From the human T2T-CHM13v2.0 reference genome, Homo sapiens, in NCBI RefSeq assembly GCF_009914755.1, contig NC_060932.1: a DNA stretch of 64,000 nucleotides. One strand, 5' to 3'. Positions 1,556 through 46,846 of the stretch are shown one piece after another (position 1 is the stretch's first letter; each line of letters opens with the position of its first letter). The notes under the pieces were generated by a model. The model searched no databases. It saw only the letters and a list, made by a program, of their open reading frames with translations, and was not told the origin of the DNA. A program made the translations under genes and the position numbers.

Positions 1556-1850
<295 letters not shown>

Positions 1851-2798
1851 GATATAGTATTGGCAAAAGAATACGCAAATAGATCAATGGAACAGAATAA
1901 AGAGCAGATGGAGACTCACATACATATAGTCACCTAATCTTTGACAAAGGAGCAGAGACAATATAGAGGGGAAAAGATAGTCTTTTCTACAAATGGTGCT
2001 GGATCAACTACATATCTACATACCAAAAAAATGAACCTGGGCACATAACTTACACCTTTCACAAAAATTAACTCAGAATGAATTTGTGTTTTACTTAAAT
2101 GTAAAACACAAAAGTATAAAGCTTCTAGAAGATAGCATAGGAAAAAATCTAGGTCACTTTGGGTTTGTCAATAACTTTTTAGGTACAGCATCAAATGCAT
2201 GATCCATGAAAGATGTAATTGATAAACTGGACTTTATGAAAATAATAAAAATTCTGCTCTGTAAAATACACTGACAAAGGAATAAACAGATAACCCACAG
2301 AGTGGGAGAAGATACTTAAAATCCTGTATCTGATAAAGAATTGTTATCCAAAAATACACAAAGAACTTTCAAAACTCAACAATAAGAAAAATACAATTAA
2401 AAAATAGGCCAAAGGTCTGAATGGACACCTCAACACAGTGAATATATACGTGACACATAAATACACAAAAGTATGTTTAACATCAAATGCTATTAGATAA
2501 TTGCAAATTAAGACAAAAAAAAGATAAAGCTGAGCAAGATGGCAGAATAAAAGCCTACACTGTTTGCCCCCACTGTTGGAACACCAAATTTTAACAACTG
2601 ACTGCACACAGAAAAGCATCATGACAAGAACCAAAAATCAAGTGAGCAATCACACTACCAGGTTTTAATTTCATATCACTAGAAGAGGCATTGAGGAAGG
2701 CCGGAGAGACAGTCTTGTATTGCTAACAACAAGTCTGCAAAAACCACAGTGTTATTGGGCTTGAGGCCCAAGTCCCTTCAAATTCTTGGACAGTCCTC

Positions 2799-4533: not shown

Positions 4534-5663
4534 TATCAGGGGAACTAGCCCCCAATATTTCAGCATAGGTTCTTTCTATTTTCCCTAAGTGTTGGCCAGT
4601 CTGAGAAATAAGAGAAAGAGTACAAAGAGAAATTTTACAGCTGGGCCACTGGAGGTGACATCACATATTGGCAGGTTCCATGATGCCCACCTGAGCCGCA
4701 AAACCAGCAAGTTTTTATTAGCTATTCTAAAAGGGGAAGGAGTGTACGAACAGGGAGTAAGTCACAAAGATCACATGCATCAAAGGGCAATAAAAGATCA
4801 CAAGGCAAGGCAAAATTAGAATTACTGATGAGGGCCTATGTCCTGCTGTGCATGCATTGTCTTGATAAACATCTTAACAGGAAACAGGGTTCCAGAGCAG
4901 ACAACCGGTCTGACTAGAATTTACCAGGCTGGAATTTCCCAATCCTTGTAAGCCTGAGGGTACTGCAGGAGACCAGGGCGTATTTCAGTCCTTATCTCAA
5001 CTGCATAAGACAGACACTCCTAGAGTGGCCGTCTATAGACCTACCCCCAGGAATGCATTCCTTCCCCAGGGCTATCAGTTATTAATATTCCTTGCTGGGA
5101 AAAGAATTCAGTGATATTTCTCCTACTCACACGTCCATCTATAGGCTCTCTGCAAGAAGAAAAATATGGCTCTATTCTGCCCAACCCCACAGGCTCTCTG
5201 CAAGAAGAAAAATATGGCTCTATTCTGCCCAACCCCACAGGCAGTCAGACCTTATGGTTATCTTTCCTTGTTCCCTGAAAATCTCTGTTATTCTGTTCTT
5301 TTTCAGGGTGCACTGATTTCATATTGTTCAAACACACATGTTTTACAAACAATTTGTACAGCTAATGCAATCATCACAGGGTCCTGAGGTGACATACATC
5401 CTCAGCTTATGAAGATGACTGGATTAAGAGATTAAAGTAAAGACAGGATATAAGAAATTATAAGAGTATTGATTGGGGAAGTGATAAATGTCCATGAAAT
5501 CTTCACAATTCATGTTCAGAGACTGCAGTAAAGACAGGCATACAAAATTATAAAAGTATTAATTTTGGAAACTGATAAATGTCCATGAAATCTTCACAAT
5601 TTATGTTCTTCTGCCTCAGCTCCAGCTGGTCCCTCCATTTGGGGTCCCTGACTTCCTGCAACA
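4534..5663 (-). mobile_element. MER11 (HERV-K11/HML-8) solo LTR
   Basis: Reverse complement begins tgttgcaggaagtcagggacccc; internal repeat 'gataaatgtccatgaaatcttcacaatt'; 6-bp TSD ACAAGC at 4528-4533 and 5664-5669. Confidence 0.88.
5143..5242. repeat. 48-bp tandem duplication inside MER11
   Basis: aggctctctgcaagaagaaaaatatggctctattctgcccaaccccac twice (5143-5190, 5191-5238) followed by aggc. Confidence 0.95.
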
Positions 5664-7123: not shown

Positions 7124-8291
7124 ATAGCTGGAGACTTCAATACCCCACTTTCAGCATTGGACAGATCTCTGAGACAGAAAATCAACAAAGAAATATTAAA
7201 TGTAATCTGCACTATAGAACAAATTGATCTAATAGATATTTACAGAACATTTTATCCAACATCTGTCAAATACACACTCTTCTCAGCATGTGGATCATTC
7301 TCAAAGATAGTCCATATATTAGGTCCTTAAAAAGTCTTAAATTATTCAAAAAATTGAAATAATATCAAGCATCTTATCTGACCACAATGGAGTAAAACTA
7401 GAAGTCAATACCTAAAAGAATGTTAGAATATATACAAAAACATGAATATTAAATGGTATGCTCCTGAATGACTAGTGAGTCAATGAAGAAATTAAGAAGA
7501 ATATTTAAATAATTTTTCAAACATATAATTTTAACACAGCATCCCTAAACCTGTGGGATACAGCAAAAGCAGTACTGAGTAAAGTTTACAGCTGTAAGTG
7601 CCTATATCAAAAAAGATGGAAACATCAAATAAATAAATGAATGAAACAGCATCTTAAAGAACTAGAAAAGCAAGAGGAAACTAAACTCAAAAGTAAGAGA
7701 AGAGATACAAATCAGAGCAGAAATAAATGAATTTGAAATGACAAAAACAATACAAAAGATCAATGAAACAAAAAGTTGGTTTTTTGAAAAAATAAACAAA
7801 ATGGAAAAACTTTTAGTCGGACTAGGAAAAAAAGAGAGAAGACCCAAATAAGTAAAATCAGAAATGAAGAAAAAAAAGACATTACAATTGACAACACAGA
7901 ATTCAAAGGAACATTAGTGGCTACCATGAACAACTATATACCAATAAATTGGGAAATTTAGAAGAAATTGATACATTTCTAGGCACATACAACCTACCAA
8001 GATTGAAGCATGAAGAAATCCAAAACCTGAACAATCCAATAACAAATAACAAGACCGAGGCCCATAGTGAAAAGTTGCCCAGTTTAAACAAAAAAAAAAA
8101 AAAAAAAAGAAGAAAGCTGGGAACTGATGGATTCACTGCTGAATTCTACCAAACATTTATAGAAGAACAAATACTAATCCTACTCAAAGTGTTCTGAAAA
8201 ATGAAGGATGAGTGAATGCTCTCAAACTCATTGTATGAAGCCATTATTATCCTGATACCAAAACCAGACAAAGACACGTTTATAAAAGAGA

Positions 8292-8640
8292 AAATGATTT
8301 AGTTTTCTAAATCATGAGTAAATGATTTAGTTTTCTAAATCATGAGTAAATGATTTAGTTTTCTAAATCATGAGTAAATGATTTAGTTTTCTAAATCATG
8401 AGTAAATGATTTAGTTTTCTAAATCATGAGTAAATGATTTAGTTTTCTAAATCATGAGTAAATGATTTAGTTTTCTAAATCATGAGTAAATGATTTAGTT
8501 TTCTAAATCATGAGTAAATGATTTAGTTTTCTAAATCATGAGTAAATGATTTAGTTTTCTAAATCATGAGTAAATGATTTAGTTTTCTAAATCATGAGTA
8601 AATGATTTAGTTTTCTAAATCATGAGTAAATGATTTAGTT
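8292..8640. repeat. Perfect minisatellite (AAATGATTTAGTTTTCTAAATCATGAGT) x12 plus 13 bp
   Basis: 28-bp period, units start at 8292+28k, no mismatches seen; internal inverted repeat ATGATTTAG-TTTT-CTAAATCAT. Confidence 0.97.
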
Positions 8641-8835
8641 AAAGTTGTTTGGTAGTAGGGTTGGTTGGGTTTGGAACTAGGGTTAGATCAGGTGGTCAAA
8701 TTGAGTTGAAATTTCCCAGGTGTAAACTGGGTGCTTTATGTTAAGCTACACCTTGGTTCGTCCAAGTGCACTTTCCAGTACGCTTACCATGTTACGACTT
8801 ATCTCCTCTATATAAATGCATAGGGGTTTTAGTTA
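8623..8835 (-). pseudogene. NUMT: mitochondrial 12S rRNA 3' end, tRNA-Val and 16S rRNA 5' end
   Basis: Reverse complement reads aactaaaacccctatgcatttatatagaggagataagtcgtaacatggtaagcgtactggaaagtgcacttggacgaac (12S end with the conserved aagtcgtaaca), then a tRNA, then tctaaccctagttccaaaccc... (16S start), in mitochondrial gene order. Confidence 0.93.
8688..8755 (-). pseudogene. Nuclear copy of mitochondrial tRNA-Val (TAC)
   Basis: caaggtgtagcttaacataaagcacccagtttacacctgggaaatttcaactcaatttgaccacctga; anticodon arm cccag-tttacac-ctggg. Confidence 0.88.
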
Positions 8836-10905
8836 GGCAAACATCCCTGATGACTATTGATGCAAAAATCATTGACAAAATACCAGCAAATCAAATTCAA
8901 CAACACATTAAAAAGATCATTCATTATAACCAAGTGGTATATATCCCTAAGATTCAAGAATGATTTATCACATGCTAATCAATCAATGCAACACATCATA
9001 TCAATAGAATGAAGGACAAAAACCATATGATTAATCAATTGAAACTGTAAAAACATTTGATAATGTTCAACATCTCTTCATGATAAAAAAAACCCTGAAA
9101 TATCTAGGCATAGAAGGAACATAAAGGCCATATTTGACAGTCCCATAACTAGTAATATACTGAACAGGGGAAAATGAAAAGCCTTTCTTCTTAAATACTG
9201 AACATGACAAAGACTCCCACTGTTATTCAACATAGCACTGGAACTCCCAGCTAGAGCAATCAGACAAAAGAAAGAAACAAAAAACATCCACATTGGAAAG
9301 AAAGAAGTCACATTATGTTTATATGCAGATGATAGGATCTTATTTTTGGAAACACCAAAACATTCCAACAAAAAAAAAAAAACTATTAGAACTGATAAAT
9401 TCAGTAAAGTTGCAAGACACAAAATCTACATACGAAAATAAGTGGCATTTCTATATGCCAACAGTGAACCATCTGAAAAAGAAATCTCAAAAAGAATCCC
9501 ATTTACACCAGCCACAAATAAAATTAAATACCTAGAAATTAACCAAAGAAGTGATAGATCTCTATAATAAAAACTATGTAACACTGATGAAAGAAATTGA
9601 AGTGGTCACAAAAAATAGAGTGACATTTCATGTTCATGGATTGGAAGAATCAATGTTGTTAAAATGTCCATACTACTCAAAGCAATCTACAGATTCAAAG
9701 CAATCCCTATCAAAATTCCAATGACATTCTTGAAAGAAATTTTTAAAAAATTCCTAAAATTTATATGGAACAACAAAAGACCCAGAATAGCTAAAGCCTG
9801 GGTAAAAAGAATAAAACTGGAGGAATCACAATACCTGATTTTAAATTATACCACAGAGCAATGGTAACCAAAGCAGCATTGTACCGGCATAAAAGCAGAC
9901 ATATAGACCAATGGAAGATAATAGAGGACCCAGAAACAAATCCACTTACCTACAGTAAAGTCATTTTTGATAATTGTACCAAGAACAGCCACTGGGGAAA
10001 AGATAGTATCTTCAATAAATGGTGCTGGGAAAACTGGATATCCAAATGCAGAAAAATGAAACTAGACCTCTATCTCTTGCCATATAAAAAATCAAATCAA
10101 AGTAGGTTAAAGGCTTAAATATAAGACCTCAAACCATGAAAACGCTACAAGAAAAAATTGGACAAACTCTCCAGAACATGACTCTGAGCAAAAATTTCTT
10201 GAGTAATACACCACAAGCACAGGCATCCAAAGCAAAAATGGACAAATAGGATCACATCAAATTAACAAGCATCTGCACAGCAAAGGAAACAATTAACAAA
10301 ATGAGGAGGCAACCCACAGAATGGGAGAAAATATTTTCAACCTGCCCATCTGACAAGGGATTAATAACCAGAATACACAGGAAACTCAAACAATTCTATA
10401 TGGAAAAAAAACCAACTAATAATCTGATCAAAAAATGGGCAAAAGATTTGAATAGACATTTCTCAAAAGAAGACATACAAATGGCAAACAGGCATATGAA
10501 AAGGTGCTTAACATCATGGATCATCAGAGAAAGGCAAACTAAAACTACAATGAATATCAGTTAAAGTGGCTTTTATCCAAGAGTCAGGCAGTAACAAATG
10601 CTGGTGGGGATGTGGAGAAAAGGAAAAACCCTTGTACACTATTTATGAAAATGTAAATTAGTAAAACCGCTATGGAGAACAGTTTGGAGGTTCCTCAAAA
10701 AAGTATAAATAGATCTACCATATGATCCAGTCCCACTTCTGAGTATATACCAAAAAAAAAAAAAAAAAGGAAATCAGTATGTTAAAGAGATATGTATACC
10801 CTCATGTTGTTGTGACACTGTTCACAATAGCCAAGATTTGGAAGCAACCTAAGCGTTCATAAACAAATGAATGGATAAAGAAATGTGATACATATACACA
10901 ATGGA

Positions 10906-35531: not shown

Positions 35532-35599
35532 GCAACATCTTCCTTTATCCTTTTGGAACTCCAGAGCAACATCTTCCTTTATCCTTTTGGAGCTCCAGA
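35532..35599. repeat. 34-bp tandem duplication
   Basis: gcaacatcttcctttatccttttgga(a/g)ctccaga twice. Confidence 0.92.
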
Positions 35600-35639
35600 A
35601 CAGAATGTTGCATTAATGTTCAAACAAATAACAGAACTG

Positions 35640-35643
<4 letters not shown>

Positions 35644-35691
<48 letters not shown>
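35644..35691. repeat. (AC)n microsatellite, ~24 units
   Basis: Direct reading. Confidence 0.95.
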
Positions 35692-35939: not shown

Positions 35940-37450
35940 AGCCAGAACGTGGAGACCAGCAGCTGCTGTCCACTCCCAGACTGTGTACCTGAGCGCAGTG
36001 GCCACTCTGCTCTTCCGCCCAGCCCACTCCTGCCTGCAGTGTTGCTGCTGTCACGCCAGCCGGTGATTTGATAGGCTTGTCGGGTTGCCATGGTGTTGAC
36101 TTCTTGCCTCTGAGGAGCTGCCCAATGACTGGAGGTCTGGGATTAAAGCGGGAAGAGGCAGCGGCCACAGCGAATTTCAGCGGCAGCTGCAGCAGCTAGA
36201 AACAAGAAGCAAGAGTACGAGGTCTTTAGGCTGCGTCCCCCTCCCGCAGTCAGGGCTGCCAGTGAGGGAAAGAGAAGAAAGGGTGGACGGTTGAAATGGT
36301 GATCACTCGAAGTCAGAAGATACAAGTGAGGGCTTTGAGACCCGCTCAGGAATAACTCATGAGCAATCAGCACGCGCTGAGAGGAAACGTCTTCCAGAAT
36401 TCGTTATTATTCACATTAGACATTACTGGAGTGGGTGGTGGGACTGAGAGTAAAAAGGTGTTAAAAGGGACCTAAATGGTTGATACATTTCCCCCCACAC
36501 CCTACTGTTCATTTGGGCAACGAAATAATTTCACAGATGCAAAGGCGCTGTACGGTGAACTTTATATCGTGGAAACTAACTTAACTCCGAGAAGAGAAAG
36601 TGCAATTAGACGGCAACCGAGTATAAGAAAATAGTTGCCTTGGACGGAGGCTGGCGGGGCGGGGGGAGCGGGGGCGGGGAAGTCAGAGAGTGCATGTGCA
36701 ATGCACAACCCCAGACGGAAATTGTAAACTAGGAAATGAAAGGGAAAGAAACCGCTTCTGTTATAAATTAGTAGGTAGGTGAAGGTTATGCAAAGAAGAA
36801 AAGGGAAAGTAAAGCTGTTAAAAGAATAGAATAAAACCCCTGGGAGTTCAACTCGAAATCCCCCTTTACTCCCCAATCCAAAGGGAGTAGGAGGAGGAGA
36901 AAAAAAAGTGCATTCTGGTGTGATGAGAACTCTCTGGAATGTCTGGAGGAGAGGATAGAAGTGCGAGGGTAAGAAGACCCGGGTGCTAAATAAATGGCAG
37001 GAGAGAGAAATGGGGGAGGGGCAAGGTAGGAAAGAAATAGTCCGCGATTCACCCAAGGGACTGGGAGATTCAGAGAGATTCCAGGAGAAGGAAAGGAACA
37101 TAAGTTCAGGCTCCCAGCGTAAGGAAAGGAGGAAACGACAAGAATCCCTAAGAGAAAAAGAGGAAAAAGCTGTGTGCTGCTGAGGCGGGGCGTGGGAAGA
37201 CAACCACAGTCAATTGGAAGGAGCCCGAGTCAGGGAGCAATTGCTAGGACTTCGGACAGAGAGGGCAGAAGATTGTGTAGACAGGCGGTCAACCAGAGCA
37301 GCGCGGGGCAGGACCCACGAGCGCGAAGCCAGGTGCCGCGCGGTCCGCGCCCCGGCTCCGGGCGACGCAGGGACTTTGCTGGCAATGAGAAGGCTGCTCG
37401 ACCAGCCTGCCGGAGTCACGATTCCCCGCGAGTCCCAAACACACGCTTCA
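35940..37450. promoter_or_regulatory. Upstream CpG-rich block (core island ~37180-37450) with GC-box/G-run tract at 36653-36679
   Basis: Abrupt GC/CpG enrichment; GGGGCGGGG motifs. Confidence 0.7.
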
Positions 37451-41719: not shown

Positions 41720-41720
41720 A

Positions 41721-41778
<58 letters not shown>
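41720..41778. repeat. (CA)n microsatellite; (AAC)n nearby at ~41582-41603
   Basis: Direct reading. Confidence 0.95.
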
Positions 41779-41780
<2 letters not shown>

Positions 41781-43204
41781 TACACACAGTTGTATTTTCC
41801 AAGAAAAGACGGGGGGAGGTGTAGAGGAGAAATAGCCACCAATTTTTTTTTAATGGTTTTCTTGATTTGACGTTTGCTGTTTTGACATTAATGACATTAA
41901 TGTTATTGATGTTTCAGGGAGGAAAAGGCAAAAGAAATAAAGAACTTGAAAACGAAATGATCATCATTTCCCTATTCTTCCATGCCAGAAATAGACCTCT
42001 TTCTTCACCTGAGCCTGAAACAGACTTATTGTTCTCAGGTGTTTCCTTCATCATATGCATTTACCCGTCTGAAGTCGCAGGAAATGGTTTTTCCATCAGT
42101 GAGCTTGTACATGGAGCCCTCTCCCGCAAAGGGCTTGATCTTTTCTGATTTGAACCTGAAAGTTTCCCTGCCTTCATTTCCCCTCAGTCTTTTTAAAATC
42201 TCCCACTCCCCTTCCCCATGCACACACCTCAAGTACTTTTTTTAAAGCCAGAAATTTTGCTCTCTGGGGTGTTTTTCAGTAAACAGTAACGCTACATAAA
42301 CACCTTTTTCACTTACAAGTTGCAGAGAATTTAAATGTTACCCCTGTGTGCACGTATGTTTCTTAAGGCATATGGATAAGCCCCACTGAGGTGCAATCAG
42401 ATACTGCTAGCAAATTGGTGATACAATTGCTGTGTAAAGGTGGGGCTGTAAACAAAGTAACTTTAAAATGTTAGAAAGCTTTCCACTTTCAACAAATTTC
42501 TTCCCAAAGAAGTTTAAAATCGAATAAAGTCTTTGGAGAGACAGATGATTTTCTTTCTGTTAACATTTAGTAGCCTTGGTTTCTAAAACACTAGTACCTG
42601 CCCTGACTCTGGATCCCTAAGGTGGTGATTTGCTTTTTTCTCTTAATAAAGACCATATCTAGGGTTTTTTTTCTCCACTCCATGCCTCTGGACTTTCATT
42701 GTAACTTTAGCCAGCTGCTGAAGGCAACCAGCTTTCCTGATCTGGGCCTAGGTCTGCTTTTTTGAGGACTGTGCTTTTATCCTCCCAGGTGTTTTGTTTG
42801 GTTTTTAATCCATTTGCATCAGTCCTAGGATTTTCCAAACGTTCCCTGATAATGCAAGGTTTTTGGCCTGGAAAGATGCATTTTTGCAGTCTCTGTTGTT
42901 CCAAATACTTGTGCGATAAATCTTTCTGTTGGTATTTGGTAGATTTGGTGCTTAAGGCCTAAGACAAGGTTTTGAAGCAGATCCTGGCGATCCAGAACTT
43001 CAAAGGCCTGTCAACTCAAAGGCAGCTGACACATCACCTGTCCAGGAAACTGGACATTGCAAGTATTTCCTGTTTTTAGTTCATTTGATTTGTTATTCTT
43101 ACTTTCTCTTTAGAATTCCTATTTTTGAAATATTACATAGATGGTGTCTACCTGTGACCTGTAGTATAGTAGTGCGAAGTGCATCAAGATGCTGAGTAGC
43201 AATG

Positions 43205-46749: not shown

Positions 46750-46846
46750 CAAAAAGAGAGACAGAGAGGAGAGAGGAAGAGAGAGAGGGGGGGAGAGAGG
46801 GAGAGAGAGAGAGAGAGGGAGAGAAGAGACAAGAGACAGAGGAGGG
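46750..46846. repeat. GA-rich polypurine tract
   Basis: ~95 bp of almost pure A/G. Confidence 0.9.

What the first reader, a model, noticed from the sequence alone, without database searches (positions are those of the whole stretch)
8292..8835. Palindromic 28-bp minisatellite born at the end of a mitochondrial insertion
Seen: 12 identical 28-bp units plus 13 bp abut a NUMT. On the minus strand the NUMT's 16S end (...caactttAACTAAATCATTTACTCA) runs straight into the array, so 18 of the 28 bases of each unit are the NUMT terminus. The remainder (TGATTTAG) is an inverted copy of that terminus. Each unit therefore holds a perfect 9-bp stem (ATGATTTAG-TTTT-CTAAATCAT), and a second 9-bp stem with a 6-nt loop spans each unit junction, giving a continuous array of alternating inverted repeats. 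The unit also contains TAGTTTTCT, the reverse complement of AGAAAACTA, which as I recall is the L1 consensus at this insertion point. Inference: snap-back or template-switch synthesis during break repair made the seed, which was later amplified by hairpin-driven slippage. The NUMT is visibly diverged from the human mtDNA I recall while the units are flawless, implying recent expansion or homogenisation and probably a polymorphic, cruciform-forming VNTR.
Basis: partly seen in the sequence, partly recalled or inferred. Interest (0 to 1): 0.8.

Follow-up and report, generated by a model that had tools for sequence, protein, structure and literature searches.

The report
Hairpin minisatellite grown from a NUMT end
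A 28-base repeat that can fold into hairpins sits at one end of an old mitochondrial DNA insertion in human chromosome 8 and was built from that end; both pieces are real and already listed in public catalogues, so the only new part is how the repeat probably arose.

Summary
Window 8288-8640 is a 28-bp tandem array: 12.6 copies, with 12 flawless units at 8294-8629. It abuts a 213-bp NUMT on the minus strand (8623-8835: 12S 3' end, tRNA-Val, 16S start), inserted in an old L1 ORF2 fragment with about 4 bp of L1 lost.

Eighteen bases of each unit are the NUMT terminus. The other 10 are an inverted copy of it plus TT, so each unit holds two 9-bp inverted repeats. The 22-bp palindrome occurs nowhere else in CHM13.

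Both parts are already catalogued:
- NUMT: HSA_NumtS_316 / numt_814, chrM 1520-1735, 86.45% identity to mtDNA, fixed.
- Array: VNTRseek TR 183213826, 18.6 copies in GRCh38 against 12.6 here, a difference of exactly six units. It is therefore length-polymorphic.

Best reading: mtDNA was captured by end joining. A direct-inverted-direct templated insertion at the 16S-side junction gave a 28-bp seed, which later grew and is kept uniform by slippage or unequal exchange helped by hairpins.

Not shown: whether the seed dates from the repair, whether the L1 9-mer match matters, and cruciform extrusion. The locus is an ordinary VNTR with a neat origin story; interest is modest.

The parts
8094..8294 (+). 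Left flank: old L1 ORF2 fragment, ending GAGAAAA at the insertion site
   Evidence: BLAST to L1 relatives, 72-86% identity. Alignment A2 shows relatives reading ...GAAAA|CTACAGGCC across the site.
8288..8640 (.). 28-bp minisatellite, 12.6 copies, 79% A+T. The first 6 bases (GAGAAA) are the L1 end, one mismatch from the unit's GAGTAA.
   Evidence: TRF; register print
8294..8629 (.). 12 identical units of ATGATTTAG-TTTT-CTAAATCAT-GAGTAA, with alternating 9-bp inverted repeats
8295..8314 (+). First copy of the 20-nt filler between the L1 end and the NUMT end: a direct copy of the NUMT end, then TT, then an inverted copy
   Evidence: 18 of 20 nt templated; 4 of 20,000 shuffles reach this
8623..8835 (-). 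NUMT, chrM about 1520-1735 (catalogued as HSA_NumtS_316 / numt_814). Its end may reach 8837.
   Evidence: catalogue rows
8623..8687 (-). 16S rRNA 5' start of the NUMT. Bases 8623-8640 are shared with the array.
   Evidence: Position next to the tRNA-Val; alignment A1
8688..8755 (-). Mitochondrial tRNA-Val pseudogene (anticodon UAC)
   Evidence: Rfam RF00005, 32.3 bits, E 8.7e-05. ARAGORN in bacterial mode found none.
8756..8835 (-). 12S rRNA 3' end of the NUMT
   Evidence: Weak Rfam hit to the SSU 3' end, 16.9 bits; alignment to other NUMTs
8836..9235 (+). Right flank: continuation of the same L1 ORF2 fragment (AGGCAAACATCCCTGATG...)
   Evidence: Genome search, 39 matches elsewhere at 74-78% identity; BLAST and alignment

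Best explanation
1. A roughly 213-bp piece of mitochondrial DNA (12S 3' end, tRNA-Val, 16S start) was captured into a double-strand break inside an old L1 ORF2 fragment by end joining. About 4 bp of L1 (CTAC) were lost, with 1-3 nt of microhomology at the 12S-side junction.

2. At the 16S-side junction a 20-nt filler sits between the L1 end (GAGAAAA) and the NUMT end (TGAGTAAATGATTTAGTT). It consists of a direct copy of the NUMT end that starts at an AAA microhomology (GAGAAAA against GAGTAAA, 6 of 7 matching), then TT, then a 9-nt inverted copy.

3. This direct-inverted-direct layout is what two template switches give, as in snap-back or synthesis-dependent microhomology-mediated end joining of the polymerase-theta type, or a later switch at a replication fork. 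It left two direct copies of a 17-nt stretch 28 bp apart.

4. That was the seed. Replication slippage or unequal sister exchange then multiplied the 28-bp unit. Each unit folds into a 9-bp hairpin in single-stranded DNA, which should stabilise slipped intermediates.

5. The array still changes length in humans, and turnover keeps the units identical.

Shown: the anatomy, the templated make-up of the filler, uniqueness in the genome, and the length difference between assemblies. Inferred: the enzymes involved, when the seed formed, and the role of hairpins in expansion.
For: - Array and perfect units.
- NUMT identity and limits. Catalogue rows: numt_814, chrM:1520-1735, chr8:77074623-77074837 in T2T coordinates, fixed; HSA_NumtS_316, 86.45% identity.
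- The six other NUMT copies aligned continue leftwards with different sequence (CCTATAC, then TTTATT or TTTTGTT), so the mitochondrial homology stops at 8623.
- L1 relatives read ...GAAAA|CTACAGGCC across the site.
- Filler: 18 of 20 nt are covered by a 13-nt direct copy and a 9-nt inverted copy of the NUMT end; 4 of 20,000 shuffles reach this.
- Palindrome: 12 exact copies in CHM13, all here. The 14 hits with 2 mismatches are scattered single sites.
- DNA fold: 12 hairpins, -79.3 kcal/mol, z = -14.7. Single hairpins are -6.0 (TTTT loop) and -4.9 kcal/mol (GAGTAA loop).
- Length polymorphism: VNTRseek supplement, TRid 183213826, GRCh38 chr8:76644954-76645474, period 28, 521 bp, 18.607 copies, in the list of private VNTRs with count 3 (definitions). 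The array here is 353 bp, so the difference is 168 bp, exactly six units.
- Precedents for short templated direct and inverted insertions at breaks: PMC11724301 (abstract and passages); PMC2943611, PMC5728401, PMC4912351 and PMC7165422 (search listing only).
Against: - No orthologous sequence from another primate could be read, so the order of events (NUMT, then seed, then expansion) is inferred from one genome.
- The fold-back step has at most 1 nt of pairing to start from, and 2 of the 20 filler bases (TT) have no template of 8 nt or more.
- A replication-fork template switch long after the insertion gives the same product.
- The link between the GRCh38 catalogue row and this array rests on chromosome, period and intron status, plus a build offset that I recalled rather than looked up.
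- Hairpin-driven slippage is a model. Unequal exchange alone would also give steps of whole units.
Confidence: 0.6

Rival explanations
1. The NUMT first joined the L1 with a plain junction. The inverted copy and the second direct copy arose later at a replication fork through two short template switches (a miniature inverted triplication or template-switch mutation), followed by expansion.
For: The direct-inverted-direct layout is also the layout of small inverted triplications tied to replication errors, although those are about 150 bp in scale (PMC13334657, abstract). The units are flawless and the array is still changing, so replication-linked processes do act here.
Against: The first direct copy starts exactly at the L1 end, within a 6-of-7 match (GAGAAAA against GAGTAAA). 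That is easiest to explain if the L1 3' end was the primer, that is, at the time of joining. Nothing excludes the later route.
Confidence: 0.25
2. The captured mitochondrial fragment was already rearranged in the organelle (a short U-turn inversion at its end). The inverted copy came in with it and only the expansion is nuclear.
For: U-turn-like inversions are reported in organelle DNA (PMC4417113, search listing only).
Against: A U-turn would continue the inverted copy past the 9 nt into the neighbouring 16S bases. Here the inverted tract stops after CTAAATCAT and is followed by a second direct copy. The six other NUMT copies aligned show the normal 16S continuation.
Confidence: 0.05
3. The array is unrelated to the NUMT: either a pre-existing L1 or satellite repeat that the NUMT landed beside, or an assembly artefact.
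For: None found.
Against: Eighteen of the 28 unit bases continue the mitochondrial homology in register. L1 relatives have no such repeat at the site. The palindrome occurs only here in CHM13. An independent assembly (GRCh38) carries a 28-bp array of 18.6 copies at the matching place, and short reads detected other alleles.
Confidence: 0.02

Closest known systems
HSA_NumtS_316 (Calabrese et al. 2012, PMC3314570) = numt_814.chrM:1520-1735 (PMC13179385)
   Same: It is this NUMT: chr8, minus strand, mt 1520/1522-1735. The T2T coordinates 77074623-77074837 equal window 8623-8837.
   Different: The catalogue rows say nothing about the adjoining array or the junction.
VNTRseek reference tandem repeat 183213826 (Eslami Rasekh et al. 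2021, PMC8096271)
   Same: Period 28, intronic, chr8:76644954-76645474 in GRCh38, listed as a VNTR. Its end lies 17 bp inside the NUMT start, as in this window, if my recalled build offset is right.
   Different: 18.6 copies there against 12.6 here. The catalogue gives no origin or structure.
Templated insertions at end-joining junctions (SD-MMEJ, polymerase-theta end joining, fold-back inversions)
   Same: Short direct and inverted copies of sequence within a few tens of bases of the break, with 1-3 nt microhomologies at the switch points (PMC11724301 passages).
   Different: Those are single scars. This one was later amplified into a tandem array, and the enzymes cannot be known.
AT-rich hairpin-forming minisatellites of the rare fragile sites FRA16B and FRA10B
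   Same: An A+T-rich unit of a few tens of bases, predicted to fold into hairpins and unstable in length (PMC2875025, search listing; unit sizes recalled).
   Different: Those expand to kilobases and cause visible fragility. This array is 0.35-0.52 kb and no fragility is known.
Tandemly amplified NUMT of the domestic cat (recalled, no call)
   Same: Mitochondrial DNA in the nucleus that became a tandem array.
   Different: There the whole multi-kilobase insert is the unit. Here only the last 18 nt of the NUMT plus a repair filler form the unit.

Membership tests
NUMT | Collinear homology to mitochondrial genes | tested here: met
   tRNA-Val above the Rfam gathering score, flanked by the SSU 3' end. 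30 matches elsewhere in the genome; the six aligned continue as 12S and 16S sequence like NUMT copies. Catalogue rows.
NUMT | Embedded in nuclear sequence with end-joining type junctions | tested here: met
   The L1 ORF2 fragment is interrupted, with about 4 bp lost and 1-3 nt of microhomology on the 12S side.
Minisatellite / VNTR | Head-to-tail units of about 10-100 bp | tested here: met
   28 bp x 12.6 copies
Minisatellite / VNTR | Copy number differs between individuals | tested here: met
   18.607 copies in GRCh38, with non-reference alleles in 3 of 2,504 genomes, against 12.6 here. The mapping between builds is partly from recall.
Templated-insertion repair junction (SD-MMEJ / TMEJ) | Filler is a copy, direct or inverted, of sequence close to the junction | tested here: met
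   18 of 20 nt; 4 of 20,000 shuffles reach this
Templated-insertion repair junction (SD-MMEJ / TMEJ) | Microhomology at each switch point | tested here: inconclusive
   AAA at the first switch and T at the last. The switch into the inverted copy has none, and 2 nt are untemplated.
Templated-insertion repair junction (SD-MMEJ / TMEJ) | Made during repair of the break; dependent on polymerase theta | not testable with these tools
   Needs orthologous loci or experiments.
Rare-fragile-site AT-rich minisatellites (FRA16B type) | A+T-rich unit with predicted hairpins | tested here: met
   79% A+T, counted by hand from the unit; hairpins of -6.0 and -4.9 kcal/mol
Rare-fragile-site AT-rich minisatellites (FRA16B type) | Expansion to kilobases with cytogenetic fragility | tested here: not met
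   353 bp here and 521 bp in GRCh38. It is not a member; it only works in a similar way.
Palindromic AT-rich repeat (PATRR) | One long near-perfect palindrome of hundreds of bases | tested here: not met
   Arms are 9 bp. The lowest-energy fold is 12 separate small hairpins.
Cruciform-forming inverted repeat | Extrusion from duplex DNA under supercoiling | not testable with these tools
   Only single-strand folds were computed.

The most novel reading that the evidence does not exclude
The locus is a preserved example of a general route to new minisatellites. A direct-inverted-direct templated insertion, made while foreign DNA (here mtDNA) was joined into a break, creates both the flanking direct repeat that slippage needs and a hairpin that favours it. 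Repair scars of this type would then be a source of hairpin-forming, still-variable VNTRs.
Probability: 0.4. Interest if true: 0.45.

Novelty: new member of a known kind. Interest (0 to 1): 0.3.

Why it matters
Minisatellite origins are rarely traceable because the seed is usually lost. Here the mitochondrial homology fixes which bases are original and which were added, so the seed can be read base by base. If ape and monkey orthologues show the intermediate stages, the locus would be a clean teaching case linking break-repair scars to the birth of a VNTR. It has no known bearing on ZFHX4 or ZFHX4-AS1 function.

Tried and rejected
- ARAGORN in bacterial mode found no tRNA; Rfam did.
- The Rfam hits of the array to a nematode snoRNA (18 bits against a threshold of 60) are just the hairpins.
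- Catalogue look-ups with no hit:
  - T2T NUMT paper PMC10671835, supplement as held.
  - Human-specific VNTR list PMC8327921 (one file could not be searched).
  - VNTR motif study PMC11701250.
- The rhesus NUMT list (PMC3314570, file 3, part 4; all chr8 rows, Rhm_235-275) has no short entry spanning the 12S/16S boundary. This is only a weak hint that the NUMT is younger than the split from Old World monkeys. It could have been missed, and no orthology table was available.
- Dating from other NUMTs gave only relative distances: 0.108-0.131 to the chr5, chr11 and chr3 copies, 0.110 to chr17, and 0.18 to chr9 and chr7.
- A longer NUMT with an internal deletion, in which the mitochondrial TTTCTA upstream would explain the unit's TTTCTAA, was considered and dropped. 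That stretch matches only 5 of 9 bases (my count from the alignment), while the rest of the NUMT is 75-89% identical to the six aligned copies.
- A fold-back primed from the ATTT/AAAT pair in the 16S continuation shown by the aligned NUMT copies predicts a 13-bp stem, which is not what is seen.
- The palindrome string occurs in 0 papers. Searches for a NUMT-born minisatellite found nothing that describes one.
- A search meant to confirm GRCh38 gene coordinates gave nothing useful.

Full report
**What is there**

The stretch 8288-8640 is a single tandem array of period 28: 12.6 copies, 99% matches, no indels. Printed in the register ATGATTTAG-TTTT-CTAAATCAT-GAGTAA, it has 12 identical units at 8294-8629. 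Eleven more bases then still match before the sequence turns into something else. The six bases before the first unit (GAGAAA, 8288-8293) differ from the unit's GAGTAA at one position.

The unit is 79% A+T. It holds two perfect 9-bp inverted repeats, one with a TTTT loop and one, across the unit boundary, with a GAGTAA loop.

- As single-stranded DNA the array folds into 12 separate hairpins: -79.3 kcal/mol, against -26.1 ± 3.6 for shuffles, z = -14.7.
- Single hairpins are worth -6.0 kcal/mol (TTTT loop) and -4.9 kcal/mol (GAGTAA loop).
- A composition-matched shuffled 28-mer holds an inverted repeat of 9 bp or more in 741 of 200,000 trials. The palindromic build is therefore not a by-product of A+T richness.

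**The neighbour is a NUMT**

- Rfam finds a tRNA with anticodon UAC (Val) at 8688-8755 on the minus strand, 32.3 bits against a gathering score of 29. A weak match to the 3' end of small-subunit rRNA starts at 8755; at 16.9 bits it is below that family's gathering score of 50. ARAGORN in bacterial mode saw nothing.
- A search of the window's own genome with 8641-8846 gave 31 matches, 30 of them elsewhere, the best at 89%, 88% and 87% identity.
- BLAST and a MAFFT alignment against six of these copies place the mitochondrial homology at 8623-8835.
- To the left of 8623 the other copies go on with their own 16S sequence, which the array does not resemble.

**The host is an old L1**

The right flank 8836-9235 has 39 matches elsewhere among the 40 scored, at 74-78% identity, out of 6,209 candidates. 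Both flanks align to the same L1 copies. In the alignment of eight relatives, the consensus across the site reads ...AAAAAAGAAAA|CTACAGGCCAATATCC. Four of the eight (L011, L012, L016, L020) carry AGAAAACTA. The window keeps GAGAAAA on the left and AGGCAAAC on the right. About 4 bp (CTAC) were therefore lost, and 1-3 nt are shared at the 12S-side junction. This matches what is described for NUMT capture by end joining (PMC2567098, abstract and passages).

**How the unit is built**

Between the L1 end (GAGAAAA) and the first full NUMT end lie 20 bases. A script asked how many of them fall in matches of 8 nt or more, direct or inverted, to about 60-80 bases of each flank. The answer was 18 of 20.

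- One 13-nt direct copy of the NUMT end (AAATGATTTAGTT). Its first three bases overlap the L1 end.
- One 9-nt inverted copy (CTAAATCAT). Its last base overlaps the NUMT start.
- Only 4 of 20,000 shuffled fillers reach this coverage.
- Two bases (TT) have no template.

The result is a direct-inverted-direct arrangement. It places two copies of a 17-nt stretch 28 bp apart, which is the flanking direct repeat that slippage needs to start an array.

Short templated direct and inverted insertions of this size are known products of break repair. My sources are PMC11724301 (abstract and passages) and PMC2943611, PMC5728401, PMC4912351 and PMC7165422 (search listings only). The same layout on a larger scale is reported from replication errors (PMC13334657, abstract).

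**The L1 9-mer**

TAGTTTTCT in the unit is indeed the reverse complement of the L1 string at the site. But TAGTT is already NUMT sequence and CT is already the start of the inverted copy. The match therefore rests on the two loop T's. By my estimate that carries a chance of about 0.06-0.15. It may explain the two untemplated bases, or it may be coincidence.

**What was already known**

- The NUMT is in print as HSA_NumtS_316: chr8, minus strand, mt 1522-1735, hg19 77557692-77557904, 86.45% identity (PMC3314570, supplement file 1).
- It is also listed as numt_814.chrM:1520-1735: chr8:77074623-77074837 in T2T coordinates, fixed, present in GRCh38 (PMC13179385, Supplementary Data 3). These coordinates equal window 8623-8837.
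- The array is reference tandem repeat 183213826 of VNTRseek: GRCh38 chr8:76644954-76645474, period 28, 521 bp, 18.607 copies, intronic. It is in the list of "private" VNTRs with count 3 (PMC8096271 supplement).
- The paper defines "private" as non-reference alleles seen in fewer than 1% of 2,504 genomes. It also says a locus can be genotyped only if the array plus 10-bp flanks fits in a read (passages). With 150-bp reads, only very short alleles could have been seen.

GRCh38 is 168 bp longer than CHM13, which is exactly six units. I link the GRCh38 row to this array by chromosome, period, intron status and a build offset that I recalled rather than looked up. With that offset, the array end falls 17 bp inside the NUMT start, as it does here.

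The 22-bp palindrome has 12 exact copies in CHM13, all at this locus. The 14 sites with two mismatches are scattered singles. It appears in no searched paper.

**Age**

- The 13.5% divergence from modern mtDNA mostly reflects later change in the mitochondrial lineage, so it says little about decay of the nuclear copy.
- Distances to other NUMTs put this one between a younger group (chr5, chr11, chr3: 0.108-0.131) and an older one (chr9, chr7: 0.18).
- The rhesus list has no matching chr8 entry. That is weak evidence for an insertion after the split from Old World monkeys.
- With a recalled rate of about 0.5e-9 substitutions per site per year, 336 bp should collect one substitution in roughly 6 million years. 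Twelve flawless units therefore point to expansion or homogenisation much later than the insertion. This is an inference.

**Verdict**

Three things remain open: whether the seed dates from the repair or from a later replication error, whether hairpins rather than plain unequal exchange drive the length changes, and whether the duplex ever extrudes cruciforms. Nine-base arms are short for extrusion, a point I make from general knowledge.

Supplements that I could not search may hold allele counts or primate comparisons for this locus. They are one file of PMC8327921, files cut when stored, and the bioRxiv supplements.

Noticed in passing
window 8634-8641 and 8828-8835: The same 8-mer (TTTAGTTA) lies at the 12S-side end of the NUMT and, near the other end, at the exact point where the array unit and the NUMT diverge. 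Both copies are mitochondrial sequence according to the alignment. It is probably chance in A+T-rich sequence.
   Followed up: partly
window 5143-5242: A perfect 48-bp tandem duplication (2.1 copies, 100% matches) just after the RefSeq enhancer at 4587-5088.
   Followed up: no
window 5436-5608: A 91-bp repeat, 1.9 copies, 86% matches.
   Followed up: no
window 35532-35691: A 34-bp duplication (2.0 copies, 97% matches) followed by a perfect (AC)24 microsatellite, about 300 bp before the ZFHX4-AS1 exon at 35989.
   Followed up: no
window 41720-41788 and 46755-46841: An (AC)34 microsatellite and an imperfect (AG)45 microsatellite near the ZFHX4 / ZFHX4-AS1 promoter region.
   Followed up: no
window 8089-8108: A run of about 20 A's inside the L1 ORF2 fragment, upstream of the insertion site. 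Several L1 relatives have expanded A/G-rich tracts at the insertion site itself.
   Followed up: no
PMC3314570 supplement file 3, row Rhm_Numts_254: The rhesus list has a young NUMT (97.86% identity, mt 1617-2129, minus strand) at rheMac2 chr8:77,497,390. The coordinate is numerically close to the human hg19 position, but it is a different and much younger insertion. Orthology was not checked.
   Followed up: no
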